From: Candidatus Woesebacteria bacterium RIFCSPHIGHO2_01_FULL_39_32
GTDB taxonomy: Bacteria; Patescibacteriota; Microgenomatia; UBA8517
Reading direction: 5' to 3'
Assembly: GCA_001792345.1 (NCBI GenBank)
Contig: MGGJ01000012.1
Location: 6,091 to 70,090, forward strand
Length of the DNA stretch: 64,000 nucleotides
Both the position numbers and the translations under genes were made by a program. Shown here piece by piece: positions 39,581-56,674 of this stretch (the first letter of the stretch is position 1; every line of letters starts with the position of its first letter). The notes beneath the pieces were generated by a model. That model searched no databases. It saw nothing but the letters and a program-made list of their open reading frames with translations, and was not told where the DNA came from.

Positions 39581-39958
39581 GTGGAGACTCGTGGAATTCT
39601 GAAACTAGTCTTAAATGAAATGATTGATAATAAAGTGCACTTTGAAGAAAAAGGACAGAACGCTGAGGGGATTATAAGACTTGTTCTGAAGGGCTTGCTT
39701 CCTGTGGTTTTGGTCTTTAGTGGATTAGCATTGCTTTATTTGAATCTGTCAGGGTGGAGTATTATATTGGGTTTACCTATGCTCGTAATCGGTAGTGTAT
39801 TTATTATCTATACATATGATGATATTTTCCAGAAAAGAATCGAACCAATTCGTGGTGCACTCACCAACTGCATAGTATGTGGTAAACCTACCCCAATTAT
39901 TGCGGGAGTCGATAAAGGCAAAACAGTGTGTCATAAGTGTCAGGAATTGGGGCGTTAA
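39581..39958 (+). CDS. Small membrane protein with C-terminal CxxC...CxxC zinc ribbon
   Basis: Two TM segments. NCIVCGKP ... CHKCQELG. Confidence 0.4.
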   Translation: METRGILKLVLNEMIDNKVHFEEKGQNAEGIIRLVLKGLLPVVLVFSGLALLYLNLSGWSIILGLPMLVIGSVFIIYTYDDIFQKRIEPIRGALTNCIVCGKPTPIIAGVDKGKTVCHKCQELGR

Positions 39959-42655: not shown

Positions 42656-45600
42656 TTAAGGGCTTCCTTCATTTGGTCCGAAGCGGAGTGCTCCTTCGTT
42701 GTAGACATTTCTTACCTGTTGGGCAGAAAGATCATAGTTGAAAATCTTGACATCGTCTATTTGACCATTGAAGTCATTATTTAAATAGCCACCAGCGCCT
42801 GCGTTCCCAAAGGATAGATCATCATTATTGACCATAGATGCGGTAGTGGGATCGGTTTGGTATCTGACACGTAGACCATCAATGTAAAGAGTGACAACAT
42901 CTTCTAAAACATCTCTTACTCCAACAATCAGATGCCAATTACCGTCGTTAACAGTTGACGTTCCACAAAGAGTCCGGGCAGCACCATCGTTCATGAGTAT
43001 ACAGGGTTGTTCGGAGGTATTTACCTCGAGATTAAAAGGATAGACCCCGATACCAGCAGCTTTGGCCACAATTGTACCGGAGTTAGTAGTATAGTTGGTC
43101 GTGGTTTTGAACCAGGCACTGACCGAATAGCTATGAGTTGTTTCTCCCAAATCGATTCCCGATCCTTCGGTAATTCTGACATTGTCGTCGGTTCCGTCAA
43201 AAGTAAGCCCAGTGTTACGTTTTCCGGTAGTCCAAGTGGTATTGCCGTTAAATGTTTGTGAATGGTAAGCGTTTCCACTTGAATCATTAGTGGTTGAGCC
43301 GGTATTTTCATCCATTTTCCACCATCCTTGTGGAGCACCGCGATTATATTCCCAAGAGATCTGAGGTTGAGTGCGGGCGTAGTTATAAATTCGAACATCA
43401 TCCAATTTGCCGCCTAAGTAATTGGTTGGTGTTGGATGTCTGGCCAGGTCGATTGAGTTGAGAGTATCGATATCGATAGTGCCTGATATAGTCAGAGTAT
43501 CTGTCTGTAATACGCCATCCACGTACATTTTGAGGATGCTGCCGTCATAAGTTCCCGCGACATGATGCCAACCGGAGGTAGCTGCAGTATTAGACGCAAT
43601 TACCCGAACCGTTGACTCTGTCCCATCTAGCCTGATTTGGAACACATATTTGTTATCAGAATTTCGCTTTCTTAATAAGGTAGTGCCCGCGTTTGAAGAA
43701 TTCATCCGATTGTAAAATTCGTGAGAGACACCATCCCCTGGATTATTCAGATCAACCCAAGCTTCAATGGTTATATATTGAGTGTTAAGAGAAGACGGTG
43801 TGCCTAGGGATATATAGTCGTCAGATCCATCAAAATCTAACGCACTTCCAAACTTACCGGGTACCCAATCACTATTGGTCATACTGCCATTCATTGTTCC
43901 GATGTTACTGTTACCCGAAGAATCATTAACATCGGTTGTGCCGGTATTTTCGTCAAATTTATAATGAGCGATAGGTGCAGTGCAAGCTGAACTTTGTCCG
44001 GGAGTACAATACTCGTTTGATGATGACCAGGTTGCATTACTGCTTGAGTCTGTTGATGTTGCTCCCCAAACAGCACTTGAGCTTTGGTTATATAGAACTC
44101 TTACTTGATCGGAAGTTAATGCTGAGCGGAATATTTGAACCTCGTCAATATCACCAATAAATTCATCCGTTCCTCCGGCTGATGCATCTTGTGCACCAAC
44201 AACTATAACGTCTGAATTTGATAAGTCTCCGGTAGCTGCTAAATTGGCATCGAAGCCAACTAATTGGCCATCGATGAATAACTCGATTTTTGAAGTACCT
44301 GTTTTGACGGCAACAGCGTGATGCCAGGTATTGTCATAGTAGTCCGTTGTGTTGCCGGCTGTATCTGCGGGTGTCCAAGTGCCGTCTGAATCAATTCCGA
44401 AAGTAATATAACCATTGGTTTGGGTTGCATATATGGCATAGCCGGTTCCGGTTTCTTTATCGATAAGGTACTCATTACCGGCTGAGGGATTAGTTGTACT
44501 GTCTGATTTAAACCAAAGACTTATTGAAAAATCCTGAGAAGCCGTAAAGTCAAAATCGGAATCATCCGCTCTTGACAACCATACATTTCCATTACCGTCC
44601 CAAGCTTTCCCATACTTACCTGAGTTGGTCCACCTTTGAGTAAGTTGGGTTAAACTATTTGTATTTCCGGATGAATCGTTGACGGTTGTACCATATCCTT
44701 CGTCAAATTTCCAATGGGCTACGGCACTGCCAACGGGGGACCCAGGAGCCGGGTGCCCGGCATTCATGTCTTCGATGATTTGGGCAGAGGTGCGAGCGTA
44801 ACGATATACCAGTACGTTGTCCACTTGACCAATAATACCGTTAGAATTATCGCTTATATGGAATGCCGTAGCATTGGAGTGATCGCCCGTATGGGTTTGA
44901 TTTGTTACTTTGTCAAACACCCCGTCGATATAATGGGAAATAGTTGGAGTAGCAGCACTTCCATTATAAACGCATGTGACGAAATGCCAATTGCCATCCG
45001 CGATGGTAGCATTACTGCCGAAGGTATCGGTTCCTGCAGCACTATCAGAAAGATCGCAACCTAACTTCCCTGTTGAAGTGAAACGCATCCGGTATCCGGG
45101 TGTGGTCCCTGCTAAATCTTTCCAAATAATAAGTTGGCTTGTAGCTGCATTGTCTGATTTTACCCAAGCTTCTAAAGTAAAATCGTCAGTACCGGCAAAA
45201 TCTAAAGACCCGTCTCCCGGATCGGGAACATTGACATAACTTGTCGCAATTGTAGAAAGTCCGCTGCCGATTTTCCCTGGTGCCCAGACAGGCCCGCCCG
45301 TGAGAGTACCGGTATTATCTTTTTCTCCGGAATCATTAGCGGCAGTTCCTGTGTTTTCGTCCAGCTTCCAATAACTAACAGGTCCCTGAGCCCAGTTATA
45401 GAGTCTCTCGACTTCCACGGGTTGCAAGACGCGGTTGTAGACTCTGACTTCATCCATCGTCCCATCAAAGTAGTTGCTTCCCTGCCTTCCAATATAGATT
45501 TGATTTGCAGTAATTGCTTGACTTGAAGAAACCGTAACGAGTTGCCAGGTATCCTGGGCGATTGTGCTTGATTCAACTCCGTTTACGTAAATCTTAGGAT

Positions 45601-46741
45601 TTGTGAAACCGGTTGCGGAGAGTATACCTGATGAAGAAGTCACATGTGCACCGCTATGTAAGCTAAGGTAATAGTTTGTAGTGCTATCGGGGTTTACCCA
45701 GAAAGAAACGGATTTGGCGCCCTGAATAGTGGTTGCGGTTGAAAAGTATTGGGTTGATGCAGGAACGTGCTCAGAGCCTCTGCCAAATTTTGCCCCCACA
45801 AAAGTAGTTGTACCGTTATTAGTTAAAGTGATTCCATTTCCGGACGAATCGGTTGCATTGCCGCTAGTTTCATCTAATTTCCAATAACCAACAAGGCCAT
45901 CAGAGAGGTAGGATTGATCAGGTCCGAATGAGGCGGAGGTTCCCCTAGAGGGAGTTTCACCGACATAGTCTGCTTTGATTTCTGTTGCTGTTCTTGCGGT
46001 TCTTAATACTTTAACTTCATCAATAAATCCACTCCATCCGTCGCTCGCAGCGTTATATATACCTATGTAGAAATTATCATCATTTGAGGCATCTGTTCCT
46101 GCCAAAGATGCATCAGTTCCTACCGATATAGCATTTATATATAGTGTAATTGAGGAAGTACCATTTTTAACTGCAGCAAGATGATGCCACTTGTTATCAT
46201 CGTAGGCAGAAGCACTTGTAACTGAATCGGACGGGAATGAAGTATTATTATTATCAATTCCAAATACAATTTGACCCGATGAGTTCATTGTTATTTTGTA
46301 GCCACCATCAGCACCTGTTGCCTCCTCTTTTGAGATCAAAGTTCTGGTACCGCTTGTAATATCAGGAGTTCTGAACCACAGTTCGACAGTTACGGTGTCA
46401 CTTGCTGCCATATCGAGGCTTGCACTATCGGAGTAGGAAACATAATCTCCTGTTCCGTCAAAATAAAGACATTTGCCAAATTTACAAAGATCTTCTGTTT
46501 TCCAAACGGCATTGGTTATTGTTCCTGCGGTTACGGTTGAGTTGGTATCGCTGGCTGAGGCTCCATAGCCTTCGTCAAAGCCAATATAAATATCTGCAGC
46601 TTGAACTTCCTTGACAGGGAAGAAGAAAAGCCTGAGGGAAGTTAATAGGACCAATATGACTAATAAGACGGATAATGCCTTGCGGCGGCGGGTGGCGGTA
46701 AGCCAGCGTATAAGTCTTATATGTCGTATGCGACTTATCAT
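42656..46741 (-). CDS. Giant (1361 aa) secreted/surface protein of tandem LamG/concanavalin-A-like lectin domains
   Basis: N-terminal signal-anchor. At least six repeats ending in a LamG-type block (DEVKVLRTA, DEVRVYNRVL, DNVLVYRYA, DEVQIFRSAL, DDVRIYNYA, DDVKIFNY), each preceded by a Gly/Thr/Ser/Asn-rich jelly-roll-like region. Confidence 0.7.
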   Translation of the reverse strand: MISRIRHIRLIRWLTATRRRKALSVLLVILVLLTSLRLFFFPVKEVQAADIYIGFDEGYGASASDTNSTVTAGTITNAVWKTEDLCKFGKCLYFDGTGDYVSYSDSASLDMAASDTVTVELWFRTPDITSGTRTLISKEEATGADGGYKITMNSSGQIVFGIDNNNTSFPSDSVTSASAYDDNKWHHLAAVKNGTSSITLYINAISVGTDASLAGTDASNDDNFYIGIYNAASDGWSGFIDEVKVLRTARTATEIKADYVGETPSRGTSASFGPDQSYLSDGLVGYWKLDETSGNATDSSGNGITLTNNGTTTFVGAKFGRGSEHVPASTQYFSTATTIQGAKSVSFWVNPDSTTNYYLSLHSGAHVTSSSGILSATGFTNPKIYVNGVESSTIAQDTWQLVTVSSSQAITANQIYIGRQGSNYFDGTMDEVRVYNRVLQPVEVERLYNWAQGPVSYWKLDENTGTAANDSGEKDNTGTLTGGPVWAPGKIGSGLSTIATSYVNVPDPGDGSLDFAGTDDFTLEAWVKSDNAATSQLIIWKDLAGTTPGYRMRFTSTGKLGCDLSDSAAGTDTFGSNATIADGNWHFVTCVYNGSAATPTISHYIDGVFDKVTNQTHTGDHSNATAFHISDNSNGIIGQVDNVLVYRYARTSAQIIEDMNAGHPAPGSPVGSAVAHWKFDEGYGTTVNDSSGNTNSLTQLTQRWTNSGKYGKAWDGNGNVWLSRADDSDFDFTASQDFSISLWFKSDSTTNPSAGNEYLIDKETGTGYAIYATQTNGYITFGIDSDGTWTPADTAGNTTDYYDNTWHHAVAVKTGTSKIELFIDGQLVGFDANLAATGDLSNSDVIVVGAQDASAGGTDEFIGDIDEVQIFRSALTSDQVRVLYNQSSSAVWGATSTDSSSNATWSSSNEYCTPGQSSACTAPIAHYKFDENTGTTDVNDSSGNSNIGTMNGSMTNSDWVPGKFGSALDFDGSDDYISLGTPSSLNTQYITIEAWVDLNNPGDGVSHEFYNRMNSSNAGTTLLRKRNSDNKYVFQIRLDGTESTVRVIASNTAATSGWHHVAGTYDGSILKMYVDGVLQTDTLTISGTIDIDTLNSIDLARHPTPTNYLGGKLDDVRIYNYARTQPQISWEYNRGAPQGWWKMDENTGSTTNDSSGNAYHSQTFNGNTTWTTGKRNTGLTFDGTDDNVRITEGSGIDLGETTHSYSVSAWFKTTTNYTTNSGTIVAKAAGIGVYPFNLEVNTSEQPCILMNDGAARTLCGTSTVNDGNWHLIVGVRDVLEDVVTLYIDGLRVRYQTDPTTASMVNNDDLSFGNAGAGGYLNNDFNGQIDDVKIFNYDLSAQQVRNVYNEGALRFGPNEGSP

Positions 46742-47304
46742 TTTTTCGCCTCCTTTCGAGAGTTATAGAGTCGCTCGGTGAAGCCACCCTTCTCAAGGAA
46801 ATCCTTTTCGAGTGTACGCAAGAGTTGGTCGAGAAGGAAGTTTTCTTGATGGATGAGACAGATAAGCGTATTGACGGCAGTCTCCGGATCTTCGCTTTCG
46901 ATATAGGTCTTATAAGTCATATACGACTTATGGGACATATAAGCGATCCTTCGGATAGCGATGACTCGTGGGTTATCTTTCCCCCAGATTCGGAGTCCTC
47001 TCTGGCGCAGAAAATCCTCGAAGTCTTCGAGTAGTTCCCCATAGCTCCCTCGAGCACTTCCTACCAATTTGAGTTCGAGTTTCTTTGAGGTGCCCGAGTT
47101 TAGACTACCTTCTGCAATGCATTGTTTTCCGCTTCTGGCAGCGCCATTCATCTGGCTAACAAGTTTCAGATCTTTTATCCACTTTCTGCAAAAGTACTCC
47201 GTACCGTCAGAAATAATGACAGCTGTTTTGTAAGCTTCCAGGTTCTTATACCCTCCGTGAGGAGGAATGAGTTTTGTATTTGTCGTATAAGTCTTATATG
47301 TCAT
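46738..47304 (-). CDS. Four-helix-bundle-like protein (second copy), with internal MTYKTYT repeat peptide
   Basis: SGKQCIAEGSLNSGTSKKLELKLVGSARGSYGELLEDFEDFL resembles the NIAEG...GS..E core of the four-helix-bundle family. Confidence 0.45.
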   Translation of the reverse strand: MTYKTYTTNTKLIPPHGGYKNLEAYKTAVIISDGTEYFCRKWIKDLKLVSQMNGAARSGKQCIAEGSLNSGTSKKLELKLVGSARGSYGELLEDFEDFLRQRGLRIWGKDNPRVIAIRRIAYMSHKSYMTYKTYIESEDPETAVNTLICLIHQENFLLDQLLRTLEKDFLEKGGFTERLYNSRKEAKK

Positions 47305-47713: not shown

Positions 47714-50700
47714 TTACCGCGATGCGGTAAGATCCACTATCCACCAGTTGAAAGTCACGTCAGTTACTGTTGGTAAGTCAAAGCCGACTACAATCTCTCC
47801 ATCTTTCTGCTCTTTTATATAAAGCACGTTATTCTGAGTTGGGGAAGTGGGAGTAACAAACACCAAAGAATTTGATTTAACGTTTGGATTTTTTATTGTT
47901 ACAACACTTGATCTGGAAGGAACTTTGGCGATGCCCGCTGAGGCCTCACTATGATAGATCATATCAGACAATATAGCGGAGGAAGTTGCATTTGGATCAT
48001 CTTTTATTGTAAGTCTATCGGTGGTTACTCCTTTAAACTCTGCAGAACCAGTAGCTGAGACTGATGCGACCTCGTCACCTAAGCTATTTGTTACACTCAA
48101 TAACTTTCCGAAATTTGTCAAATTCTCACTGTCGGCATCAAGCCTTAAACTCTTTGCAGAAAGTGTACCGCCGATTGTGACATCTCCTGCAATTTGTATA
48201 TTTCCAAGTGTGTCAATCTGGACTAAACCTGCCATTAAGTAAAGAGGTTGTGAAGCAGAAGATTGTATTGATAGGGGAGCATTTATGGTGTCAATATTGG
48301 TAGCAAGTAGCTGGTAGCTAGTATCTAGGGAAGATTGAATTACTAAATCAGAACCAACTACTATAGAATGCGTAACTGAGAGAGAATCAATTGCGGCTGT
48401 ATTGGTAACATAAAGATTTTCCAGCGCGAGCTCATTTAGGGATGCACTACCTGTTGCTGATGTCGGCCAACTTTGAGATTCCGCAAGAAGAGTTTGATTT
48501 GCTTCTACTTCGGCTAAAAGTCCTTCAATTTCTTCTCGAGTTAGGGAGTTTTGAGAGACAACCTCGTCAGCAATTACTTTTCCAACTCGTAGTTCGCCTG
48601 CGATTGAGGCCTCATTTGTTTTCAGACTATCGCTTGCTAACTTTCCCGAGAAAGTTGCGCTTCGGGCGCTAATATCACCCTCAGTGTAAACATTTCCGAT
48701 TTCATCTACCGAAGCAACCGTTTTTCCACTAGAGTTTTTGAGAAGTAACTTTCCAAACGATGGTTGATTTGGATCACCAATTTGAATTGCAATATCTTTT
48801 TCTCCATCCAAAGGTTTTATTTCTTTAGTTAGTACTTGGGGAGAAACCAAACCTACTTTTACCAGCATTCTGTCAACTGTACCTTGGAAGGCGGTAAATC
48901 CATCAGTAATTATTTTTGTAAGACCGGAGAGTTTATCAATTAAATTTCCATCTTTGTCAATAAGCTTTTGGTAGCCTTCATTTTGCATATCCTCAGCAAG
49001 TTTTATATCTCCGGAATCAGTGAGAGTCCCTAGTGGTTCAAACCAAGAGTTATTAATAAATACAGTTATTAAATCTTTTCCTGATCCTGGGCTCCATGGT
49101 TCAAGGGCCTGACCTATGACTCTTCCATTACTTTGGGATTTCATTGCAAGGCCAGGTTCCGGACTTGTTGTTAAATAATCCCCAGGAATAATTGGACCAG
49201 AATTTTGAGAGATTTTAACCGGTACGCGACCTGCAAGAGCAATGGGGTATCCTGGGGCCTCTCCAAGTACAATTCCGGGATTAGTTGATACAACTCCAAC
49301 AACTCTTGATTCATAGGCTGAAGCGCTTTTTATGACGTGTTCGGGATTTTCAGGATCAACTTTGACTACCTCTCCAGGTGAAAGAGACTGGATGCTGGGG
49401 AAAAACTCAGCAATATCAACCCCATCGGTATTGTCGCTGTTGTTTGCTGAGGCATCCATCCATCCGAGTAAATTCCAGTTTGTACCGTCGTATATTAAAA
49501 ATAACTGGTCTCCTGTGGCAAAGGCAGTAATGTCGGTCGTTCCACAATTTATATTTGAAGAAGTACAGTCAAGGTCAAAATTTGCAGCAGTGGATATCTC
49601 TATATATATAATTTGCCCCGCTGTACCATTTGTGAAGTTTGTAACTAATCTATTGGTACTATTGTTTTCCAAGAAGTGTGACCCTCCCGCGACAGATGGG
49701 GTAACACTATCGCCAAGTGTTTGTTGTGAATCCAGCGCAAAAGCACCTTGGACTATCATTTGACCCGTTGCGGGAAGGTCAAAGACTATGTCACCCGAAT
49801 TGTAAGTTTTAAGTGTAAGGTTATTACTTTCAAAAGATTCACCGGCACGAACGGTCAAAGGACCGTAGCTGTCAATTGTTGATGCGGTTTGATTAGTAAA
49901 AATTAAATCATATGCTATTGAGACATCTCCTGCGGCTGTGAATTCGTGGGGGAGCGCGGAGGTTATTTTGGCTGTATCAACGCTGAAAAGCTCAGATGAA
50001 TTATCGTAAAGCGCAAAAAGATTTCCGGTTAGGTCTCCATATTGACCAATGTTTACTTTGACCAAATCACCGCTTGCCGTTGCCCATGTTGTTGGAGACC
50101 AGTCAAAAAGTCCCAAGTTTCCTGAGGTTAACGAAGTAGCCGTTGAATTAACTTTAAGAAGCGATCCGGTTGTCCAGGTATTAGAACTTCCCGTATTAAG
50201 ATTAAGCAGTGTACCTGTCGTTAAAGTGGAGGATGTTATACCAAATACATCGCCTGTTGTTGTTACATCAGAAGTTATATCGGCAACTCCACCTGCGGCG
50301 GTTTCAATTCCATAAGCTTGGAAGCTTGCAGAAGCGGTTGCTGTTCCACCGACCAATAAGTCCCATGTGGAGTTTCCAGGAGAAAGCATAACACTGCTTC
50401 CCAATTGCCAGTAATTTGTTCCACTACCCGTATCGTCCGTTCCACAGTCCCATTCAAAATTTGTGTTATCCCATTCTAAAATACCTCCTGCTGCACATCC
50501 TCGAATTAGGGTTAGCTCACCATTTCCGTCGAATTCCAATCCTGATGTAGATGAAGTTGTTGAACCGTCGGCAGCAGTTGTATCAAGGTCGACTTGTAAT
50601 ACGTTGGACGCTACCTCCAGACCACTTCCATTGAAGTCGTTAATGCTATCACCGGATATTACAATAAAATTATCACCCAAACTAATGCCATTGAAAAGTT

Positions 50701-53700
50701 CTGGGTCTGATACGTTTATTGCAGTGGTTGAAGTGTCGGTCGCAGTCGCGGTAATTTCTAAATAATTAGAAATTGTGTTGCCAGTGGTTTCAAGATTTGC
50801 GAGATAAATAAGATTTTCTGTAAGTCCGTTAGCAGCATCGTCAAAATTGTAAACAGTAATACCCTTTTGAGTTCCTCCCGAGCTTGCATTAGTCAATTTA
50901 ACGTTGATCATCTCAACACTATTTGATCCAGTTATGGTATTGGTAATTGCTAGATTTTCTGTCTCGGTTAAGGTAAGCGTTACGTCGTCGTTGAAAGTCG
51001 CACCGCCGGTAAAAGAAAAGTCACTATCAGAGTTATCGTCTGTTGTAAAAGTAAACTGAGTCGCACTAGCAGATCCAAGTGATAAAGCTCTTGCTCCTGC
51101 TGTGCCGATATTTATATTTTGAGCAATAGCATCATTACCTATTGAAATTACTCCGGCAGATGAATTAAGTTCCAATACTCCCGTAGCATCAACTAGTAGT
51201 GTATCTGCTGAAGAGAGAATTAAATCTCCCGCTGAACCTGTTACTGCAATAGTTAGATCTTCCGCATCGGCGTCTGCAGCAACAGAAATATTGCTTGCTC
51301 CCGTTGCTCCTGTTACGTCAATCGATAAGGATGTTAATGCATCAAGAGTAAAGCCTCCAGCTGTTGCATCAAGATTAAGAGCTGACGCTCCGGTTCCTGC
51401 TGAAGACATTGCAATTTCTTGTGCTCCACCTCCTGCTGCTGACAGAGTAAGACTTTGCCCAGAGCCTGTAACTGTGAAGTTAGAAGCGGAAGTTGCATCA
51501 AGTGATATAGCAACGGCATCGGCAGTTATTGAAGTTACGTCGGCACTTCCTAATGCAATTGCTCCTGCACCAGTTGGGTCTATTGTTAATGTTTCCGCAT
51601 CTGATGTTGTGATTAACGCTGATGCATCGTTGTATCCCAGTGTCAAATCAGCAGCTTGAATGAGTCCATTCCTTGTTAAATTAAATACAGTAGTTCCCGA
51701 AGCACTAGCTGAGAGGATATTCTGGTTGGTTCCGGTGTCGTTGAATATTGCCAGAGCCCTGCCTGCACGGGTTCCTGTTACAGTGAATAATCCATGAATA
51801 GCAGATTCGGTAACGGTTCCGATGCCAACTCCCAAAAGAGTAGCACCATTATTCGGGTAGAGGAGGCTATTGGCTTCTGTCCATTTGCTTTCACCCGAGC
51901 CGCCTGTTGTTATCCAGCCGCAGTTTGCCTGGTCTTTGTCACACAAAAGTCTGTCGCCCCAGAAAAGGTCTTCGCCGGCAGTTCCACCTGCTGCTGCAAC
52001 CCCGAGGAGATTAAAGGCATTGGCGTCATTATTTAAGCCTATGGTAGTCCCATATACATCCAGTACATCACCATCTGCAATGATTACATTGCCGCCAGTT
52101 GGATTAAAAGTCAGATCTGTTGTTCCGCCCGTTGTTATTGACCCGACGCCCACAAAATCCAATGAATTAATATCAAGGATGGTTCCTTCAATTGAAATAT
52201 TACCCAAGTTCCCATCGTCATTAATAGTTATTGCACCCGTTGTACCACTTACATCAAATTCGGTTGTATCAACTGCAAATGAATCGCCGCCGTCGCCGAA
52301 GATCATTGCACCACCTGGTGTTAAAGTAAATGCTCCAGTAGTAGTAAATGTTGTACTTGCACCGTCAAAGGCTATATTGGTATCGGCAATTGTTACATCG
52401 CCATTGCTGTCAAGTGCACCGTCAAGATATGTTGTCCCGTCGACCTCCAATGAATCTGTAATGTAAAGATCAGATCCGTCTCCGATTGCAGCACCACCTG
52501 CATCTCCTGTTCCTATGGTATTGTATGCATTGCCATCAGGAGAAGAGTCACCAAAAGAAAACACGCCGTCTGCCGAAAGATTGCCGCTTCTGTCTAAATT
52601 CATGACAGTAGTTCCCGAAGCACTAGCTGAGAGGATATTTTGATCAGTACCAGTATCATCTAATACGACAAGAGCTTTTCCACCCTCCGTTCCAGTTACT
52701 GTAAGATTGCCAATAGAGTCGCCCGCTGTTGTTGAACCAACAAGTACATTGTATGTAGCAGCATCAGGGTATATTACAGAACCTGAAAGGGTCCAGACGT
52801 CGGATCCACTTCCTGCTGAACACACCACTACATTATTACTTCCGTCTATACAAAGACCGTTGCCCGTCGAAGAGGATAAACCGGATATTACAAAGGTGCT
52901 ATCAGCATCTGTTGTAAATGTAATATCTGCAGTCGATTGGGGAGAGAAACTTATAGAAGAATCATCCGAAAAAGTAGCAAAAGGAGTCCCGGTGTCTTGC
53001 AAAACAAAATCTCCTGTACCATCCAGGTCAAAGGTAAAGTTATTGGCCCCTAGGTTAACTTCTGTGGCAGCATCTAAATCAAGTGTATCCTGGAATTCTG
53101 TAAAGTCGAGAATATCGTCCGCAACCGAGATATTTATTTCGTTAGTAGGAGATGCGGTAAGAGTAAAATCGGTACTGAAATCTAGAGTGTCTACATTTGT
53201 ACCGATAGGTGTATCATTAGTTTCGACGTTTATTATTGCGCTAGTTGCTCCTGTGTCGTTGCTACATTCCCACAAATCAGTAGTCTCATTCCATTTAAGA
53301 ATTTGTCCTGTTGCACAACCCTGAAGTAAAGTTAAGCCCGAGGATAAGACCTCAAGTCCTGACGAAGATGAGGTTGTGGATGAAAGCGCATCAGTTGCTG
53401 ATGTTAAATCTATAGTTAATAATCCCGATGAAACTTGTAATCCATTACCTGAAAAGTCGGAGATTGCTTCGGAGTTAACAGTTATACTTCCGGCAAGGGT
53501 TAGATTTCCTGAATTATCGACAGTTAAAAGATCGGTTCCAGTTGAGTTTTCAAAGACCACTAGGTTTGTGCTCTGAGTAGAATTTCCTTGAACTAGAAGC
53601 TGGATTTCATTTGCATCACCGTCAACTGCCAACTTTCCAAGTTCAGTTGTACCTCCAACGGTAACACTGTCGGTCGTATTTGTTAAGTAAACAAAACCTG

Positions 53701-55294
53701 TATCTTGTGTCCATTTTGAAGCACCGGAACCGATTGCGGCATCTAAATCATCCAAAACGTCCTGTACATTTGAAGAGCTGGAATTTGCAAACTCATCAAA
53801 GGTTCCGACTAGTGATGCCCCGGAGTTAGTTGGTCCCGTCCCGGTATCATTAAGTCCAATTGTACCAATAGTTAAATCCTGACCAGAGGCGATTGTTACC
53901 CCGCCTGAATCTGTTGTTAAAGAATCTAAAGTTAGATTCCCAGTTGAAACATCAAAGAAAAATGGCGCAGTAGAATCTGTTCCACCAAAAGCTAAATCGT
54001 CTGTTGTAGAAGTTAAATAGGTGATAGCTCCTCCATCTGTCCAGAGGTTGGTCCCACCAGTTTGATCTACTGCCCAGGTAAAACCGCTGGTTGACGAATT
54101 GTAAGTTAATACATATGCATTAGTAGGGGAGTTTGATACATTTAGATCTACTTCTTTGATTGTATCGTCTATTATTTCTGAAGACTCTATGGAAGTTCCG
54201 AGGGTGGTTTGCAAACTACCTGAAGAAACCTGTAGACCAGTTCCGGTTAAGTCATTTACGGAATCGCTTCCTACAACAAGGGAGCCGTCTAACTCCAGGT
54301 CGCCAGTAACAAAAAGATCATCTCCTAATAGGTCAATGGTGCTTTGTGTTCCAGTACCTATTTTTACCCCGCCACCACCAGGATCAATTGTCAAATCATC
54401 TCCCGAGGAAAGTGTGTTACCAGATAGATTTAATGTTCCTGCAATGTCGTTCGTATTTCCATTTACATCGATTGAGTTTTCTATAGTAGTAGTTCCGGAT
54501 GTTGCTCCGATTGTGATGTCAGTTGCAGCACCCCCAATATTAAGTGTACTTACACCTGAATTGACAAAATTAAAGTCAGTTGAAGTACTGGTGATATCAC
54601 CTCCGTTTGCGTCTATGTTTCCCAAAAAGCTCGCGTCTTCTTGAAATTCGCTTTCTATAAAAACTTTGAATGAAATATTTTGGAAGGAAGTTGCGGCGAG
54701 AACCACAGCCTCCTTATCTTGTATCTCTTCTTTCAACTGGTCAATTCCACTCTTTTCGGTTTTTTCTGAAGGTAAAAATAAAGAGATTCTTTCTTTAATA
54801 CTGTTAACAGGTTCAGGAAGTTTAATATTTGTGTTCGAGATTACTTTGGTCAGAGGATTCAAAAGCAAAAGAATTAATCCAAAAGTTGTAAAAGTCAAAA
54901 ATATTTTTTTAGAGGATTTCGGTATCGATTTGTAAATAGGGGAAAGGCTGAAGCTTTCCTTTTGGGTATTTGTCTCTAGAGTTTTAGGGGTCAAAGTTTC
55001 TGTTGACTCTGGTGGTATTTTTATCTCCGCATCCAACGGAAAAAGGCGCGAATAATCTAAGGCAGACTTTCTTTTTAGAGAATTCTTTTTAAATTCTTTT
55101 AGATAGGGAAGTAGGTAACGTCGGTGACCACCTGATGTTCTTATTGCTGACAACCTTCCACTTTTCTCCCATCGTCTAAGGGTCTTTCCTGATACCGAAA
55201 GGTATTCAGAAGCTTGTTTTATGGTTAGAAGATTTTGGGCAGACATTTTATATTTTATTTGGGTATTTAAATTTTGGACATGGATATTGGACAA
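47714..55294 (-). CDS. Giant (2526 aa) surface protein: cytoplasmic excisionase/MerR-like HTH, TM anchor, then ~2350-aa Gly/Thr/Ser/Asp-rich repetitive extracellular region (beta-helix/fibre-like)
   Basis: N-terminus LTIKQASEYLSVSGKTLRRWEKSGRLSAIRTSGGHRRYL (HTH). TM FLTFTTFGLILLLLNPL. Long low-complexity repeats (TGTG..., GGT..., LTLD...). An alternative start at the internal Met (55246) aligns with paralog 777..1316. Confidence 0.7.
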   Translation of the reverse strand: MSNIHVQNLNTQIKYKMSAQNLLTIKQASEYLSVSGKTLRRWEKSGRLSAIRTSGGHRRYLLPYLKEFKKNSLKRKSALDYSRLFPLDAEIKIPPESTETLTPKTLETNTQKESFSLSPIYKSIPKSSKKIFLTFTTFGLILLLLNPLTKVISNTNIKLPEPVNSIKERISLFLPSEKTEKSGIDQLKEEIQDKEAVVLAATSFQNISFKVFIESEFQEDASFLGNIDANGGDITSTSTDFNFVNSGVSTLNIGGAATDITIGATSGTTTIENSIDVNGNTNDIAGTLNLSGNTLSSGDDLTIDPGGGGVKIGTGTQSTIDLLGDDLFVTGDLELDGSLVVGSDSVNDLTGTGLQVSSGSLQTTLGTSIESSEIIDDTIKEVDLNVSNSPTNAYVLTYNSSTSGFTWAVDQTGGTNLWTDGGAITYLTSTTDDLAFGGTDSTAPFFFDVSTGNLTLDSLTTDSGGVTIASGQDLTIGTIGLNDTGTGPTNSGASLVGTFDEFANSSSSNVQDVLDDLDAAIGSGASKWTQDTGFVYLTNTTDSVTVGGTTELGKLAVDGDANEIQLLVQGNSTQSTNLVVFENSTGTDLLTVDNSGNLTLAGSITVNSEAISDFSGNGLQVSSGLLTIDLTSATDALSSTTSSSSGLEVLSSGLTLLQGCATGQILKWNETTDLWECSNDTGATSAIINVETNDTPIGTNVDTLDFSTDFTLTASPTNEINISVADDILDFTEFQDTLDLDAATEVNLGANNFTFDLDGTGDFVLQDTGTPFATFSDDSSISFSPQSTADITFTTDADSTFVISGLSSSTGNGLCIDGSNNVVVCSAGSGSDVWTLSGSVIYPDAATYNVLVGSTTAGDSIGNLTVTGTEGGKALVVLDDTGTDQNILSASASGTTVMNLDRSGNLSADGVFSFGDSSPDGNAYNTIGTGDAGGAAIGDGSDLYITDSLEVDGTTYLDGALDSNGDVTIADTNIAFDGASTTFTTTGAFTLTPGGAMIFGDGGDSFAVDTTEFDVSGTTGAITINDDGNLGNISIEGTILDINSLDFVGVGSITTGGTTDLTFNPTGGNVIIADGDVLDVYGTTIGLNNDANAFNLLGVAAAGGTAGEDLFWGDRLLCDKDQANCGWITTGGSGESKWTEANSLLYPNNGATLLGVGIGTVTESAIHGLFTVTGTRAGRALAIFNDTGTNQNILSASASGTTVFNLTRNGLIQAADLTLGYNDASALITTSDAETLTIDPTGAGAIALGSADVTSITADAVAISLDATSASNFTVTGSGQSLTLSAAGGGAQEIAMSSAGTGASALNLDATAGGFTLDALTSLSIDVTGATGASNISVAADADAEDLTIAVTGSAGDLILSSADTLLVDATGVLELNSSAGVISIGNDAIAQNINIGTAGARALSLGSASATQFTFTTDDNSDSDFSFTGGATFNDDVTLTLTETENLAITNTITGSNSVEMINVKLTNASSGGTQKGITVYNFDDAANGLTENLIYLANLETTGNTISNYLEITATATDTSTTAINVSDPELFNGISLGDNFIVISGDSINDFNGSGLEVASNVLQVDLDTTAADGSTTSSTSGLEFDGNGELTLIRGCAAGGILEWDNTNFEWDCGTDDTGSGTNYWQLGSSVMLSPGNSTWDLLVGGTATASASFQAYGIETAAGGVADITSDVTTTGDVFGITSSTLTTGTLLNLNTGSSNTWTTGSLLKVNSTATSLTSGNLGLFDWSPTTWATASGDLVKVNIGQYGDLTGNLFALYDNSSELFSVDTAKITSALPHEFTAAGDVSIAYDLIFTNQTASTIDSYGPLTVRAGESFESNNLTLKTYNSGDIVFDLPATGQMIVQGAFALDSQQTLGDSVTPSVAGGSHFLENNSTNRLVTNFTNGTAGQIIYIEISTAANFDLDCTSSNINCGTTDITAFATGDQLFLIYDGTNWNLLGWMDASANNSDNTDGVDIAEFFPSIQSLSPGEVVKVDPENPEHVIKSASAYESRVVGVVSTNPGIVLGEAPGYPIALAGRVPVKISQNSGPIIPGDYLTTSPEPGLAMKSQSNGRVIGQALEPWSPGSGKDLITVFINNSWFEPLGTLTDSGDIKLAEDMQNEGYQKLIDKDGNLIDKLSGLTKIITDGFTAFQGTVDRMLVKVGLVSPQVLTKEIKPLDGEKDIAIQIGDPNQPSFGKLLLKNSSGKTVASVDEIGNVYTEGDISARSATFSGKLASDSLKTNEASIAGELRVGKVIADEVVSQNSLTREEIEGLLAEVEANQTLLAESQSWPTSATGSASLNELALENLYVTNTAAIDSLSVTHSIVVGSDLVIQSSLDTSYQLLATNIDTINAPLSIQSSASQPLYLMAGLVQIDTLGNIQIAGDVTIGGTLSAKSLRLDADSENLTNFGKLLSVTNSLGDEVASVSATGSAEFKGVTTDRLTIKDDPNATSSAILSDMIYHSEASAGIAKVPSRSSVVTIKNPNVKSNSLVFVTPTSPTQNNVLYIKEQKDGEIVVGFDLPTVTDVTFNWWIVDLTASR

Positions 55295-55310
55295 TTAGAT
55301 TCAAAATGGG

Positions 55311-55347
55311 TATATTCATTACCACACATTTAGGGTTACTTTGTCAA
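55311..55347 (-). promoter_or_regulatory. Candidate promoter of the giant gene (minus-strand TTGACA-N17-TGGTAATGA)
   Basis: Reverse complement of 55311-55347 reads cTTGACAaagtaaccctaaatgtgTGGTAATGA. Confidence 0.25.
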
Positions 55348-55830
55348 GTAGATTTTTTCTTTTATATATAGTTGTCAGAGAACCAGAATACTCAGAAAAC
55401 TAGGAGAACTTAGGGAATCAGAAATCCAGGTGACCAGAAAGCCTGAAACCTGTAATTGTAGGGTTTATTTAGTTTCGGATACTCCAGTATTCTAAGTTAT
55501 CTGGTACCCCGTTTTATTAGAATCTAAGAATTTAGCTTCAGACCTCTACAATTAGGTATAAAAAGCAAACACTTAATATTTCCGTAAAATAAACGCAAGC
55601 AAATTGGAGAACGAAAAAAAAGAATATATTATTATTTTGCGGTAAAAAGCGGAGAATATAGTAAGTAAATTTTTACTATGCTTTTAATTGCGGAGATTAT
55701 TTAGGAAATCTTTTAAAATATAAACAAATCTATGTAATCTTATATCAATAAATTTAATGGACAATAATTCTGTTTGAGTTAAAACAATATTTTATATCAT
55801 CGGTTTGTATTTTTTAAAAAAACAAACCTA

Positions 55831-55859
55831 TTGATTTTTAGAATTTATATCTCTAGTAT
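55831..55859 (+). promoter_or_regulatory. Candidate promoter TTGATT-N17-TAGTAT upstream of 55907 gene/atp cluster
   Basis: Hexamers with 17-nt spacing, ~45 nt upstream of the start codon. Confidence 0.3.
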
Positions 55860-55906
55860 AAAAAGTAATAATATTCACTTTTTTAGATTAAACTTATGAT
55901 CGTAAT

Positions 55907-56674
55907 ATGAAGCTCAGAACCTGTCTTTTATTATCTTTATTTATTTTACTCTTTTCAGTTAAATTATCTTCTGCACAGATAACATCTTCCGGAATAGCCG
56001 TATCCACTCCTGTGACTGATCCTGATGCACAAGACGGTGACATTATTTGTACGTATCAATCTGGAAATGCGCGATGCAATAAGGAGTACGATACTGCAAT
56101 TTATGGTGTAATTAGTGATAGTCCTGCGGCTGCAATTGAAGATGAAGATTTGCAAAATTCAAGACTAGTAATTTCATCAGGAGTGTCTACGGTTAGAGTT
56201 TCAAGTGCAAATGGAGACATATCTGAAGGTGATTTTATTACAACTTCTCAGCGTTCCGGGATTGGGGTGAAGGCTGATAGAAATGGGTACGTTTTGGGAA
56301 TGGCCTTGGAAAACTATGAGTCGGGGGACACGAATGCTATAGGTAGGATACAGGTGATGGTGAATATACATCCTACAGGTTCTCTTACAGGTTCTCGCGG
56401 AAACCTTTTACAATTTATACGCGAGGGTCTCGCTGTTCCAGTATTCGATCCGGTTGAGTCTTTAAGATATATCTTGGCTGTTGCAATTGTACTCATATCA
56501 TTCACTTTGGGAATGATATATTTCGGGCGAGCCTCAAGAGCGGGTATTGAAGCAATCGGTAGGAACCCTCTAGCTAAAAAAGTGATACAGTTAACAGTAT
56601 TTTTAAATATTACGTTAACAATTGTTATAGTAATGGTGGGGTTAGGTCTTGCCTACCTTATTCTAATTTTCTAA
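55907..56674 (+). CDS. Chimeric protein: signal peptide, ~185-aa extracytoplasmic domain, C-terminal two-helix hairpin resembling F/V-ATPase subunit c but lacking the carboxylate
   Basis: The C-terminal 70 aa (ILAVAIVLISFTLGMIYFGRASRAGIEAIGRNPLAKKVIQLTVFLNITLTIVIVMVGLGLAYLILIF) align with c-subunit features: a Gly-containing TM1, the R-N/Q-P polar loop, and VGLGL in TM2. The Asp/Glu position in TM2 is occupied by Leu/Thr. Confidence 0.55.
   Translation: MKLRTCLLLSLFILLFSVKLSSAQITSSGIAVSTPVTDPDAQDGDIICTYQSGNARCNKEYDTAIYGVISDSPAAAIEDEDLQNSRLVISSGVSTVRVSSANGDISEGDFITTSQRSGIGVKADRNGYVLGMALENYESGDTNAIGRIQVMVNIHPTGSLTGSRGNLLQFIREGLAVPVFDPVESLRYILAVAIVLISFTLGMIYFGRASRAGIEAIGRNPLAKKVIQLTVFLNITLTIVIVMVGLGLAYLILIF

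What the first reader, a model, noticed from the sequence alone, without database searches (positions are those of the whole stretch)
47714..55294. 2526-aa Gly/Thr/Ser/Asp-rich fibre-like surface protein anchored by an N-terminal HTH-TM module
Beyond the HTH anchor, the ectodomain is a long low-complexity array (TGTG, GGT, LTLD, SATG-type repeats) suggestive of a beta-helix or beta-roll fibre, and densely populated with potential O-glycosylation sites. It is the most plausible substrate of the adjacent glycosylation island. The C-terminal ~350 aa are less repetitive and may form a tip or receptor-binding domain.
Basis: partly seen in the sequence, partly recalled or inferred. Interest (0 to 1): 0.55.

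Follow-up and report, generated by a model that had tools for sequence, protein, structure and literature searches.

The report
Membrane-tethered DNA-binding giant surface fibre
A 2,510-residue protein of an uncultured Woesebacteria (CPR) bacterium joins a phage-tail-fibre-like surface fibre to a small cytoplasmic DNA-binding domain, and a conserved site of the type that domain recognises sits on the gene's own promoter, so the fibre probably controls its own production.

Summary
The ORF is real. The true start is most likely ATG 55246 (2,510 aa), not TTG 55294. It comes from a Woesebacteria MAG (GCA_001793105.1).

Anatomy, all predicted: a BldC/MerR-type winged HTH (aa 3-51), a disordered linker, one TM helix (aa ~114-134, N-in), and a ~2,370-aa Thr/Ser/Gly/Asp-rich ectodomain.

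The ectodomain is not a tandem repeat array, β-roll or predicted β-helix. It is a mosaic of dispersed duplicated modules. Its conserved C-terminal part folds like phage cement, fibre and tailspike domains.

Syntenic orthologues of 2,500-4,000 aa occur across Microgenomatia. They are almost always paired divergently with a 255-aa membrane protein at the head of the ATP synthase cluster.

New result: every BldC DNA-contact residue checked is invariant or nearly so. The 7-mer TTGGACA/TGTCCAA resembles BldC's AATTCGGACA site. It is 53-fold enriched in the 160-nt leaders of 70 related loci, positioned at the transcription start. The window has two copies.

Best reading: a membrane-anchored phage-like fibre that is also a transmembrane autoregulator. 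DNA binding, trimer state and glycosylation are inferred, not shown.

The parts
47714..55246 (-).
55342..55347 (-). -35 element TTGACA of the giant gene's promoter, conserved in orthologous loci
   Evidence: CTTGACA 27-fold enriched in leaders
55318..55326 (-). Extended -10 (TG-T-GGTAAT), 18-nt spacer from the -35
   Evidence: alignment with TGTCTTAAT of the orthologues
55287..55293 (-). Operator-like motif TGTCCAA, copy 1, at the canonical position of the downstream arm (54 nt after the -35 start)
55274..55280 (-). Operator-like motif TGTCCAA, copy 2 (direct repeat, 13 nt downstream of copy 1)
   Evidence: the only two adjacent copies among 8 in 64 kb
55094..55240 (-). BldC/MerR-type winged helix-turn-helix, aa 3-51, predicted cytoplasmic
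   Evidence: Pfam MerR 38 bits, HTH_17 30.7 bits; NCBIfam HTH_BldC E 1.8e-11; PDB BldC 6ama E 1.7e-5; AF2 pLDDT ~85; invariant residues
54908..55093 (-). Poorly conserved, low-confidence linker aa 52-113, ending in the conserved juxtamembrane YKxxPxxxK motif
54845..54907 (-). Single transmembrane helix aa ~114-134; Lys-rich N-side implies N-in topology
   Evidence: AF2 helix 110-138
53747..54709 (-). Conserved membrane-proximal stalk, aa ~180-500 (~35-60 % identity in most relatives)
50178..53746 (-). Variable mosaic middle, aa ~500-1690, built of shuffled modules and containing four of the five Cys pairs
53267..53485 (-). Module B copy 1 (aa 588-660; LQGCxxGQILKWxxxxxxWxC motif)
50447..50665 (-). 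Module B copy 2 (aa 1528-1600), 49 % identical to copy 1
52571..52855 (-). Module A copy 1 (aa 798-892)
51653..51946 (-). Module A copy 2 (aa 1101-1198), 48 % identical to copy 1; 74 % over 108 nt at DNA level
49418..50149 (-). Well-conserved ectodomain segment, aa ~1700-1943 (mostly 55-65 % identity in relatives)
49025..49417 (-). Phage cement/decoration-like domain, aa 1944-2074 (pLDDT >95), homologous to the ectodomain of the neighbouring p255
48476..48538 (-). Short α-helical segment, aa 2237-2257
47735..47962 (-). C-terminal β-sandwich, aa 2429-2504 (pLDDT ~93), resembling C-terminal domains of phage tailspikes and fibres
55907..56674 (+). p255, the conserved divergent partner: signal peptide + phage-cement-like domain + ATP-synthase-c-like hairpin; first gene of the ATP synthase cluster
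42656..46741 (-). 1,361-aa LamG-repeat protein with N-terminal anchor, conserved downstream partner on the same strand
39955..42066 (-). 703-aa polytopic membrane protein with a weak Wzy_C-like hit and C-terminal TPRs; homologues also lie downstream of the paralogous giants

Best explanation
The gene encodes a type-II (N-in) membrane-anchored surface fibre built like a phage tail fibre or appendage. It has a conserved membrane-proximal stalk, a fast-evolving mosaic middle, and a conserved C-terminal set of phage-like domains that probably nucleate oligomer (most likely trimer) assembly. It is a vertically inherited core gene of Microgenomatia, probably used for attachment to surfaces or host cells.

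Its cytoplasmic N-terminus is a functional BldC-family DNA-binding domain on a ~60-residue flexible tether. That domain most likely binds the AAAnTTGGACA sites that overlap the transcription start of its own gene. This would make the protein a single-pass transmembrane transcription regulator that limits, and probably represses, its own synthesis.

Shown: the ORF, domain matches, synteny, residue conservation, and motif enrichment and position. Inferred: topology, oligomeric state, DNA binding to this motif, the sign of regulation, and the adhesive role.
For: HTH. Pfam MerR and HTH_17 score above their cut-offs. The only solved-structure matches are the HTH of BldC (6ama, E 1.7e-5) and a CarH-like protein.

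DNA-contact residues. Mapping BldC residue n to giant residue n-5 gives K26->K21, T27->T22, R30->R25, W31->W26, G44->G39, H46->H41 and R47/R48->R42/R43. All are invariant or >=90 % conserved in 24 relatives, while the rest of the N-terminal region averages 17 % column identity. In BldC, R30A, H46E and G44E abolish DNA binding (PMC5859096).

Motif. An unbiased 7-mer count puts TGTCCAA first: 91 observed against 1.68 expected, in 58 of 70 loci. Its variant TGTCTAA gives 39 against 0.71. Density is 8.1 per kb in leaders against 0.155 per kb in 1.03 Mb of flanking DNA. The first copy starts 33-34 nt after the -35 start, and the modal arrangement is TTGGACA-N13-TGTCCAA. Of 47 close motif pairs, 42 lie in HTH-giant leaders; three of these are in loci without the p255 neighbour. 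The promoters of three paralogous giants that carry a different N-terminal domain lack the motif pair. The logo aaaAAAnTTGGACAttt fits BldC's AATTxxxxC rule and its optimised site AATTCGGACA. Within the window the motif is at chance level overall, yet two copies lie 13 nt apart in this leader.

Fibre. There is one TM helix and five Cys pairs in the ectodomain. Two C-terminal domains are modelled confidently. Foldseek hits against PDB are all phage tailspike, fibre or capsid-cement proteins. Against BFVD there are 92 hits at E<=1e-3, the best at 1e-12 to 1e-9, with 140-160-column matches at 25-31 % identity. Some relatives carry Peptidase_S74, as phage fibres do.

Core gene. The order ATP synthase <- (iPGM) <- p255 | giant -> LamG is conserved in about 70 loci.
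Against: No experiment exists for any member. The NCBIfam BldC model scores 43.7 bits against a cut-off of 77.

BldC binds 9-bp head-to-tail direct repeats. Here the arrangement is mostly an inverted pair 20 nt apart, or direct repeats at 11-13 nt, so the binding geometry must differ.

The inverted pair could equally be a 5'-terminal RNA hairpin or the site of another regulator. Arm covariation is only partial (G/G 18, A/A 5, mixed 11), and both readings predict it.

Twelve of 70 leaders lack the strict 7-mer. In the window itself the upstream arm is degenerate.

Monomer AlphaFold2 models of the stalk have low confidence, so neither fibre geometry nor oligomeric state is established. The PDB fold matches are weak (E 2e-3 or worse). 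Which query domain each hit covers is inferred from alignment length.
Confidence: 0.55

Rival explanations
1. The HTH is an exapted cytoplasmic plug or topogenic anchor with no regulatory role. The conserved TTGGACA/TGTCCAA element is then either a 5'-terminal mRNA hairpin (stability or translation control of a very long mRNA) or the operator of a different, soluble regulator.
For: The modal inverted arrangement with a 13-nt loop could fold as a 7-bp hairpin at the 5' end of the transcript. Some arm changes are compensatory, for example TTAGACA...TGTCTAA in L013, L031, L037 and L038. Membrane tethering makes access to DNA harder. A second, fibre-less HTH-TM protein in the window (777-1316) has no such motif in its own leader.
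Against: A mere anchor would not need the exact BldC DNA-contact set to stay invariant across a class-level radiation while the linker and TM drift. Both arms are conserved in sequence, not only in pairing. Seven A/G and four G/A combinations break pairing. Levybacteria loci carry 4-6 direct repeats at about 11-nt spacing, and the window carries two direct copies; neither can form the hairpin. The motif matches the recognition rule of this very HTH family. Rfam finds no known RNA there.
Confidence: 0.25
2. One reading: a β-helix or β-roll fibre made of short low-complexity repeats, heavily O-glycosylated by the adjacent glycosylation island, with a C-terminal receptor-binding tip. The HTH-TM serves only as an anchor.
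For: Ser+Thr make up 24 % of residues. A large glycosylation island is present at about 4-38 kb. A weak Wzy_C-like (O-antigen-ligase/O-oligosaccharyltransferase-type) membrane protein lies in the same gene string and recurs next to paralogous giants. Some relatives carry Beta_helix/NosD domains.
Against: There are no tandem repeats, RTX motifs or β-helix periodicity. There is no Pfam β-helix hit and AF2 predicts no β-helix. In orthologous locus L003 no glycosylation genes follow the LamG gene. The Wzy_C hit is E 0.006, below the cut-off. The C-terminal domains are conserved rather than variable.
Confidence: 0.12
3. A tail-fibre gene of a prophage or other mobile element, or an S-layer subunit, rather than a dedicated cellular fibre.
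For: Fold and profile matches are almost exclusively to phage structural proteins. One relative is annotated as a 'virion structural protein'.
Against: The chromosomal position next to the ATP synthase cluster is fixed in about 70 genomes of several Microgenomatia lineages. No phage structural or integration genes flank it. It carries an N-terminal TM anchor and a cytoplasmic domain. Its single gene with a TM anchor, and the absence of Pfam/NCBIfam S-layer or SLH-type domain hits, argue against an S-layer lattice protein.
Confidence: 0.05

Closest known systems
BldC of Streptomyces (founding member of the BldC family of MerR-like regulators; PDB 6ama/6amk; PMC5859096)
   Same: Minimal MerR-type winged HTH without an effector domain. 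The residues that contact DNA or build the DNA-bound oligomer (K26, T27, R30, W31, G44, H46, R47, R48) are all conserved. The candidate site AAnTTGGACA fits AATTxxxxC and resembles the optimised whiI site AATTCGGACA.
   Different: BldC is a soluble 68-residue protein that binds 9-bp head-to-tail direct repeats. Here the domain is the first 2 % of a 2,510-aa membrane protein. The candidate sites are mostly an inverted pair 20 nt apart, or direct repeats at 11-13 nt. The NCBIfam BldC score is below its cut-off.
ToxR/CadC/TcpP-type single-pass transmembrane transcription regulators (TTRs; PMC10269533, PMC5430869)
   Same: N-terminal cytoplasmic DNA-binding domain, flexible linker, one TM helix and an extracytoplasmic C-terminal part; regulation is exerted from the membrane.
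   Different: ToxR-like receptors use an OmpR/PhoB-type winged helix and a small periplasmic sensor domain. Here the HTH is MerR/BldC-type, and the outside part is a ~2,370-aa phage-like fibre. The TTR survey text mentions neither MerR-type domains nor CPR bacteria; its supplementary tables were not read.
Mosaic adhesive trimer (MAT) fibres of Bdellovibrio bacteriovorus (PMC10769870) and phage tail fibres/tailspikes
   Same: Chromosomally encoded, phage-tail-fibre-like, modular surface fibres of a bacterium that lives on other bacteria. The family splits into members with and without a Peptidase_S74 chaperone domain. Modules are shuffled between paralogues.
   Different: MAT proteins are about 1,000 aa, secreted via a signal peptide, with an invariant N-terminal docking domain and variable C-terminal tips. 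Here both ends are conserved and the middle varies, and the anchor is a TM helix with a cytoplasmic DNA-binding domain. The trimeric state is not shown.
Phage capsid cement/decoration proteins (Pfam Phage_cement_2, XM1_gp53_minor_capsid; e.g. 8hdt_G, 5wk1_K, 7kmx_a)
   Same: Fold-level match of about 135-145 columns to the aa 1944-2074 domain. Weak Pfam hits come from the homologous domain of p255 orthologues.
   Different: Here the domain is embedded in a cellular fibre, and in p255 it is fused to a membrane hairpin; it is not on a capsid. The giant protein itself gives no significant Pfam hit to these families.

Membership tests
BldC family (MerR-like minimal wHTH regulators) | MerR-type winged HTH recognisable by profile | tested here: met
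   Pfam MerR 38.0 bits (cut-off 28.2), HTH_17 30.7 (27), MerR_1 24.8 (21.6); BldC 6ama E 1.7e-5
BldC family (MerR-like minimal wHTH regulators) | Curated NCBIfam HTH_BldC score threshold | tested here: not met
   43.7 bits against cut-off 77
BldC family (MerR-like minimal wHTH regulators) | Conservation of DNA-contact and oligomer residues (K26, T27, R30, W31, G44, H46, R47, R48) | tested here: met
   The equivalents K21, T22, R25, W26, G39, H41, R42 and R43 are invariant or >=90 % conserved in alignment A3; residue roles are from PMC5859096
BldC family (MerR-like minimal wHTH regulators) | No coiled-coil dimerisation or effector-binding domain; small stand-alone protein | tested here: inconclusive
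   No MerR effector domain was detected, but the HTH is fused to a TM helix and a 2,370-aa ectodomain, so it is not stand-alone
BldC family (MerR-like minimal wHTH regulators) | Binds AT-rich + C (AATTxxxxC) repeats cooperatively | not testable with these tools
   A candidate site that fits the rule is conserved at the gene's own promoter; binding is untested
Single-pass transmembrane transcription regulators (ToxR-like topology) | Cytoplasmic N-terminal DNA-binding domain, one TM helix, extracytoplasmic C-terminal region | tested here: met
   HTH aa 3-51, one hydrophobic helix at aa 114-133 with KK on its N side, then 2,370 aa with five Cys pairs; the topology is predicted, not measured
Single-pass transmembrane transcription regulators (ToxR-like topology) | OmpR/PhoB-type winged helix (ToxR-like receptor family proper) | tested here: not met
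   Only MerR/HTH_17/excisionase-type models match
Phage tail fibre / tailspike-like and MAT-like fibres | Fold similarity of constituent domains to phage fibre, appendage or cement proteins | tested here: met
   Foldseek PDB top hits are all phage proteins, but weak (E 2e-3 or worse); BFVD gives 92 hits at E<=1e-3, best 9.5e-13; PHROG tail fibre E 1e-3 at aa 1981-2029
Phage tail fibre / tailspike-like and MAT-like fibres | Intertwined homotrimer | not testable with these tools
   Only monomer AF2 was available; the stalk is modelled extended at low confidence
Phage tail fibre / tailspike-like and MAT-like fibres | C-terminal Peptidase_S74 intramolecular chaperone (S74 subfamily) | tested here: not met
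   No PF13884 hit in this protein; it is present in relatives P0067, P0073, P0096, P0098, P0099 and P0105
RTX β-roll proteins | Tandem GGxGxDxUx nonapeptides | tested here: not met
   0 GGxGxD matches
Right-handed parallel β-helix proteins | Beta_helix/NosD/pectate-lyase profile hit, or a regular ~22-residue coil periodicity | tested here: not met
   No Pfam hit at E<=1; no significant lag at 18-25 residues; no β-helix in the AF2 models

The most novel reading that the evidence does not exclude
The giant fibres of Microgenomatia are contact- or tension-sensing transmembrane transcription factors. The N-terminal BldC-like domain emerges first from the ribosome and binds, in cis and co-translationally, to the operator about 50 bp upstream of its own start codon. 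Each gene copy would thus be shut off and tethered to the membrane while one fibre is being made. Engagement, breakage or proteolysis of the extracellular fibre later changes HTH occupancy, in a Notch- or ToxR-like manner. Paralogous giants that carry a Phage_int_SAM-type DNA-binding domain in place of the HTH would follow the same principle. p255 (phage-cement-like domain fused to an ATP-synthase-c-like hairpin) would be a membrane platform that interacts with the fibre through the shared domain.
Probability: 0.2. Interest if true: 0.85.

Novelty: new variant of a known kind. Interest (0 to 1): 0.65.

Why it matters
CPR/Patescibacteria are thought to live attached to other cells, yet their attachment organelles and their regulation are almost unknown. 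Public annotation files these 2,500-4,300-aa proteins as 'MerR family DNA-binding transcriptional regulator' or 'hypothetical'.

The analysis suggests they are a conserved class of phage-like surface fibres that carry their own DNA-binding domain and a matching site on their own promoter. This gives a directly testable link between the cell surface and gene expression in organisms with very few conventional signalling systems. The first test is simple: a 60-residue peptide against a 30-bp duplex.

It also extends the BldC family and the transmembrane-regulator class to a new architecture. In addition, it flags a conserved partner gene that fuses a phage capsid-cement domain to an ATP-synthase-c-like hairpin.

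Tried and rejected
- Whole-protein self-BLAST reported only the identity hit. It was replaced by 120-aa chunks, which revealed the dispersed modules.
- Tandem Repeats Finder on the gene found nothing relevant.
- Rfam at E<=1 on the 750-nt upstream region gave no family.
- A check for diversity-generating-retroelement template/variable repeats across the window found none. The only long DNA repeats are the internal module A pair and an HTH-coding similarity to ORF 777-1316.
- A possible second upstream motif (CCGCA/TGCGGT) looked recurrent by eye but did not appear among the 15 most enriched 6-mers of the distal intergenic regions, so it was dropped.
- Literature searches found no description of this architecture in the held library. 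The CPR 'Pam pilus' preprint concerns unrelated donor-strand-exchange pilins.
- AlphaFold2 monomer models of the stalk were too uncertain to decide geometry.
- Covariation of the two motif arms does not separate an RNA hairpin from a symmetric operator.
- S-layer and prophage readings were rejected on synteny and anchor architecture.
Full report
**1. The observation**

An uninterrupted ORF lies at 47714..55294 on the minus strand (translation). The longest-ORF start is a TTG at 55294. That TTG lies inside the conserved leader motif (aaTTGtccaa). It is downstream of a conserved sigma-70-type promoter: TTGACA at 55342-55347, an 18-nt spacer, and TG-T-GGTAAT at 55318-55326. Orthologue N-termini align to the ATG at 55246. 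The public gene call in GCA_001793105.1 (contig MGHH01000010.1) also gives 2,510 aa. I therefore use 47714-55246, 2,510 aa.

The composition is T 12.6, S 11.2, G 10.6, L 10.0, D 8.2, A 8.2, N 6.7 %. G+T+S+D+N make up 47-65 % of each 100-aa block from aa 200 to 1900, and 38-44 % from aa ~1900 to the end. K+R are almost absent from the ectodomain.

- Tandem Repeats Finder finds only two trivial arrays of 29 and 20 nt.
- There are no GGxGxD motifs and no strong residue or hydrophobic periodicity.
- Forty-residue window entropy is 2.9-3.8 bits.
- What exists are dispersed duplicated modules: aa 798-892 ~ 1101-1198 (48 %), aa 588-660 ~ 1528-1600 (49 %, with a C...W...C motif), aa 314-345 ~ 579-610, and weaker ones.

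With no long DNA repeats, and with orthologues of similar size in many independent assemblies, a repeat mis-assembly is unlikely.

**2. Anatomy**

N-terminus. Pfam MerR (38 bits), HTH_17 and MerR_1 all score above their cut-offs at aa 6-51. NCBIfam gives HTH_BldC (E 1.8e-11, below its cut-off) and the excisionase domain. The only solved-structure relatives of the whole 2,510 aa are BldC (6ama, 6amk) and a CarH-like protein, and they match only aa 3-54.

Membrane anchor. One hydrophobic helix lies at aa 114-133 and is preceded by SSKK. AlphaFold2 models the HTH at pLDDT ~85, a disordered linker at aa 59-100, and a helix at aa 110-138. By the positive-inside rule the HTH is cytoplasmic and the remaining ~2,370 aa are outside. 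Ten cysteines arranged as five close pairs (644/661, 799/809, 1102/1109, 1584/1601, 1894/1901) fit an extracytoplasmic location.

Ectodomain. No Pfam, NCBIfam or PDB sequence match exists beyond aa 60. The one exception is a weak PHROG tail-fibre hit at aa 1981-2029.

C-terminal model. An AlphaFold2 model of aa 1690-2510, built on 43 sequences, has two confident domains. These are aa 1944-2074 (pLDDT >95) and aa 2429-2504 (~93), with a short helical segment at aa 2237-2257. The rest has low confidence.

Fold searches with that model:
- Against the PDB, Foldseek returns only phage proteins at the top. Tailspike and fibre C-terminal domains (Pam1 7eea, Sf6, R2 pyocin, Klebsiella depolymerases) match over about 70-90 columns. 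Capsid cement or decoration proteins (Pam3 8hdt_G, BB1 8pkh, phi29 6qvk, XM1 7kmx, TW1 5wk1, SHP 1td0) match over about 135-145 columns. These hits are weak, at E 2e-3 or worse.
- Against predicted viral structures there are 92 hits at E<=1e-3, the best at 1e-12 to 1e-9. Several are 140-160-column matches at 25-31 % identity to uncharacterised or 'preneck appendage' phage proteins.
- Which query domain each hit covers is my inference from alignment length.

Stalk. The stalk (aa 180-700) is modelled as extended chain at pLDDT 40-70, with no β-helix. That is the usual behaviour of monomer predictions for intertwined phage fibres, but it proves nothing about geometry.

**3. Relatives and context**

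The whole protein finds 110 relatives of 1,390-4,280 aa. Where they are named, they come from Woesebacteria or Microgenomates. Most have the same HTH at the N-terminus.

Piecewise comparison shows conserved ends and a mosaic middle. The HTH, the stalk base (aa 180-500), aa 1700-1950 (mostly 55-65 % identity) and the C-terminal modules are conserved. The middle modules occur at different positions or are absent.

Some relatives lack the HTH. Instead they start with a Phage_int_SAM-like domain, followed by a TM helix and the same kind of ectodomain.

Among the 150 closest HTH relatives in a 1.84-billion-protein library, 43 are 400 aa or longer. About 36 of these show the same layout: an HTH, one TM helix 110-340 residues in, and a G/T/S/D/N-rich remainder.

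Synteny is strong. In three looked-up orthologues (including the complete chromosome CP065002) the order is ATP synthase <- iPGM <- 255-aa gene | giant -> (four-helix-bundle gene) -> LamG giant. The same holds in about 70 of 80 loci from a species-level genome collection. Those loci cover Woese-, Levy-, Ames- and Chisholmbacteria and others. This is a vertically inherited core locus, not a prophage.

**4. The HTH is built to bind DNA, and a matching site sits on its own promoter**

In an alignment of 24 N-terminal regions the invariant columns are A12, T22, L23, R24, R25, W26, E27, T37, G39, H41, R42, R43, Y44, plus only G321, F389 and W391 further on. Mean column identity is 17 %.

BldC residue n corresponds to giant residue n-5 (alignment). 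The BldC structure paper assigns these roles (PMC5859096):
- K26 and R30 make base contacts, with R30 on the G of a YpG step.
- T27, T29 and K33 make phosphate contacts.
- W31 contacts the backbone and kinks the DNA.
- H46, R47 and R48 insert the wing into the AT-rich minor groove.
- G44 lies in the oligomer interface.
- R30A, H46E and G44E abolish binding.

The equivalents of these key residues, K21, T22, R25, W26, G39, H41, R42 and R43, are invariant or nearly so. The phosphate-contact positions T29 and K33 are not conserved as such: T29 is an invariant Arg (R24) in the giant family, and the K33 equivalent (K28) varies.

Reading the leaders of the related loci revealed a recurrent TTGGACA/TGTCCAA. 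The counts are:
- 91 strict copies in 11.2 kb of 160-nt leaders (8.1 per kb), with 58 of 70 loci having at least one and 27 having at least two.
- 160 copies in the remaining 1.03 Mb of the same loci (0.155 per kb), a 53-fold difference.
- An unbiased count of all 7-mers ranks it first by number of loci and essentially first by fold. Its one-mismatch variant TGTCTAA comes next. Both rank ahead of the -35 element.
- The first copy starts 33-34 nt after the start of the -35 hexamer, that is, at the expected transcription start. The modal layout is TTGGACA-N13-TGTCCAA.
- Of 47 close pairs in all loci, 42 are in HTH-giant leaders. Three of these come from loci that lack the p255 neighbour.
- The promoters of three Phage_int_SAM-type paralogues lack the motif pair and share other conserved elements.
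- Levybacteria leaders carry four to six direct copies at about 11-nt spacing.

In the window the 7-mer occurs 8 times in 64 kb against 9.3 expected. The other six copies lie at positions inside listed ORFs. The remaining two are 13 nt apart at 55274-55280 and 55287-55293, between the promoter and the ATG. The first of these is at the canonical position of the downstream arm; the upstream arm is degenerate here.

The logo is aaaAAAnTTGGACAttt. It obeys BldC's AATTxxxxC rule: an AT-rich minor-groove element, a C-G pair at position 9, and a TG step on the other strand. It is 8/10 identical to the optimised whiI site AATTCGGACA.

The inference that this HTH binds this site is therefore well motivated, but untested. 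An operator overlapping +1 suggests repression.

**5. Mechanism proposed**

The protein is a membrane-anchored phage-like fibre. Its C-terminal domains, as in phage fibres, probably nucleate oligomer assembly. Its mosaic middle diversifies by module exchange. Its cytoplasmic BldC-type domain, on a ~60-residue tether, occupies sites at its own transcription start.

This places it in the class of single-pass transmembrane transcription regulators such as ToxR and CadC (PMC10269533, PMC5430869), but with a different HTH type and a fibre in place of a sensor domain. The closest functional analogue for the outside part is the mosaic adhesive trimer family of Bdellovibrio (PMC10769870).

Whether fibre engagement feeds back on DNA binding is open.

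**6. Rivals**

- Anchor-only HTH, with an RNA hairpin or a foreign operator. This is disfavoured by the invariant DNA-contact set, by sequence (not just pairing) conservation, by direct-repeat layouts that cannot fold, and by the match to the family's recognition rule. It is not excluded; arm covariation is uninformative.
- β-helix or β-roll glycoprotein. The structural part was tested and not met. Glycosylation is untestable here. The island is real, but no glycosylation gene follows the LamG gene in L003. A weak Wzy_C-like/TPR membrane protein (E 0.006) has homologues (42-46 % identity) downstream of two of the three Phage_int_SAM-type paralogues examined (L085, L087). That is the only recurrent hint.
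- Prophage fibre or S-layer protein. Rejected on synteny and architecture.

**7. Novelty and verdict**

The held literature has no description of this architecture. Public records call these proteins MerR-family regulators or hypothetical proteins.

I rate it a new variant of known kinds: BldC-family HTH, transmembrane regulator and phage-like cellular fibre, combined. Interest is 0.65.

Confidence by part:
- About 0.8 that it is a membrane-anchored phage-like surface fibre.
- About 0.5 that the HTH binds the leader motif.
- 0.55 for the combined statement as worded.

Noticed in passing
window 55907-56674 (+); orthologues in about 70 loci (e.g. L002 6369-7088, L003 7073-7843): p255 is the divergent partner of the giant gene and the first gene of the ATP synthase cluster (p255 - iPGM - b - delta - alpha - gamma - beta - epsilon; no a or c subunit gene is seen in the window). 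It consists of a signal peptide, a phage cement-like domain and a C-terminal two-helix hairpin. The cement-like domain is homologous to giant aa ~1975-2080 (BLASTP 31 %, E 7e-12) and gives weak Pfam hits to Phage_cement_2 and XM1_gp53. In a profile search the hairpin matches ATP synthase c subunits (2wie E 2.8e-4; 9itj, 3v3c, 4mjn). The loop GRNP is invariant, but the ion-binding carboxylate of helix 2 aligns to I/V. In loci without iPGM, p255 sits where atpE normally is.
   Followed up: partly
window 777-1316 (-): This is a second BldC-like HTH gene. It encodes 179 aa: an HTH (LMTIGQASEYLGVSIDTLRRWEKKRKLESYRSPGGHRYF), a ~100-aa linker and a C-terminal TM helix, with almost nothing outside the membrane. 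It is therefore a tail-anchored HTH without a fibre. Its HTH-coding DNA is 70 % identical over 64 nt to that of the giant gene. No TTGGACA was seen in its leader.
   Followed up: partly
L085 3482-14173, L086 3508-12877, L087 1923-13307: Paralogous giants have an N-terminal Phage_int_SAM-like domain + TM instead of the HTH. They sit in another conserved locus: LeuRS <- | a stand-alone 168-170-aa Phage_int_SAM protein -> giant -> four-helix-bundle protein -> TPR/Wzy-like or LamG protein. Their promoters share AGGCTATTGACA ... TAGCCT and GTCTAATCAGTATAA elements rather than TTGGACA pairs.
   Followed up: partly
window 4353-8942 (+): A 1,529-aa protein fuses N-terminal HTH_28/HTH_23 (transposase-type) helix-turn-helix domains to a family-2 glycosyltransferase. 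This is another DNA-binding-domain fusion to a large, probably membrane-associated, envelope protein in the same window.
   Followed up: no
window 39955-42066 (-), 46738-47304 (-), 42252-42623 (-); L085 14184-16738; L087 13315-13710 and 16779-17307: Two genes recur downstream of both the HTH-type and the SAM-type giants. The 703-aa polytopic protein (weak Wzy_C hit, C-terminal TPRs) has homologues at 42-46 % identity. The 188-aa four-helix-bundle protein (TIGR04258 suffix domain) has homologues at 58-63 % identity. This suggests a shared accessory set.
   Followed up: partly
window 55247-55906 and the equivalent regions of 72 loci: The intergenic region between p255 and the giant gene is unusually long for a compact CPR genome: 660 nt here, median 666 nt, up to 1.5 kb. 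It holds further TTGGACA-type copies upstream of the -35 element (1.35 per kb against 0.155 per kb background), and in the window a 35-nt imperfect direct repeat at 55625-55700. No Rfam family matches.
   Followed up: partly
window 42656-46741 (-): The 1,361-aa protein with six LamG (Laminin_G_3) domains downstream gives a sub-threshold NCBIfam match to 'TafC family fimbrial protein' (E 5.9e-38, 131 bits against cut-off 410). It has an N-terminal hydrophobic anchor.
   Followed up: no
P0182; P0202 and others: Some relatives carry two or more tandem copies of the same HTH (up to 8 matched stretches in a 623-aa protein). One relative has a Hint/intein-like domain after the stalk base.
   Followed up: no
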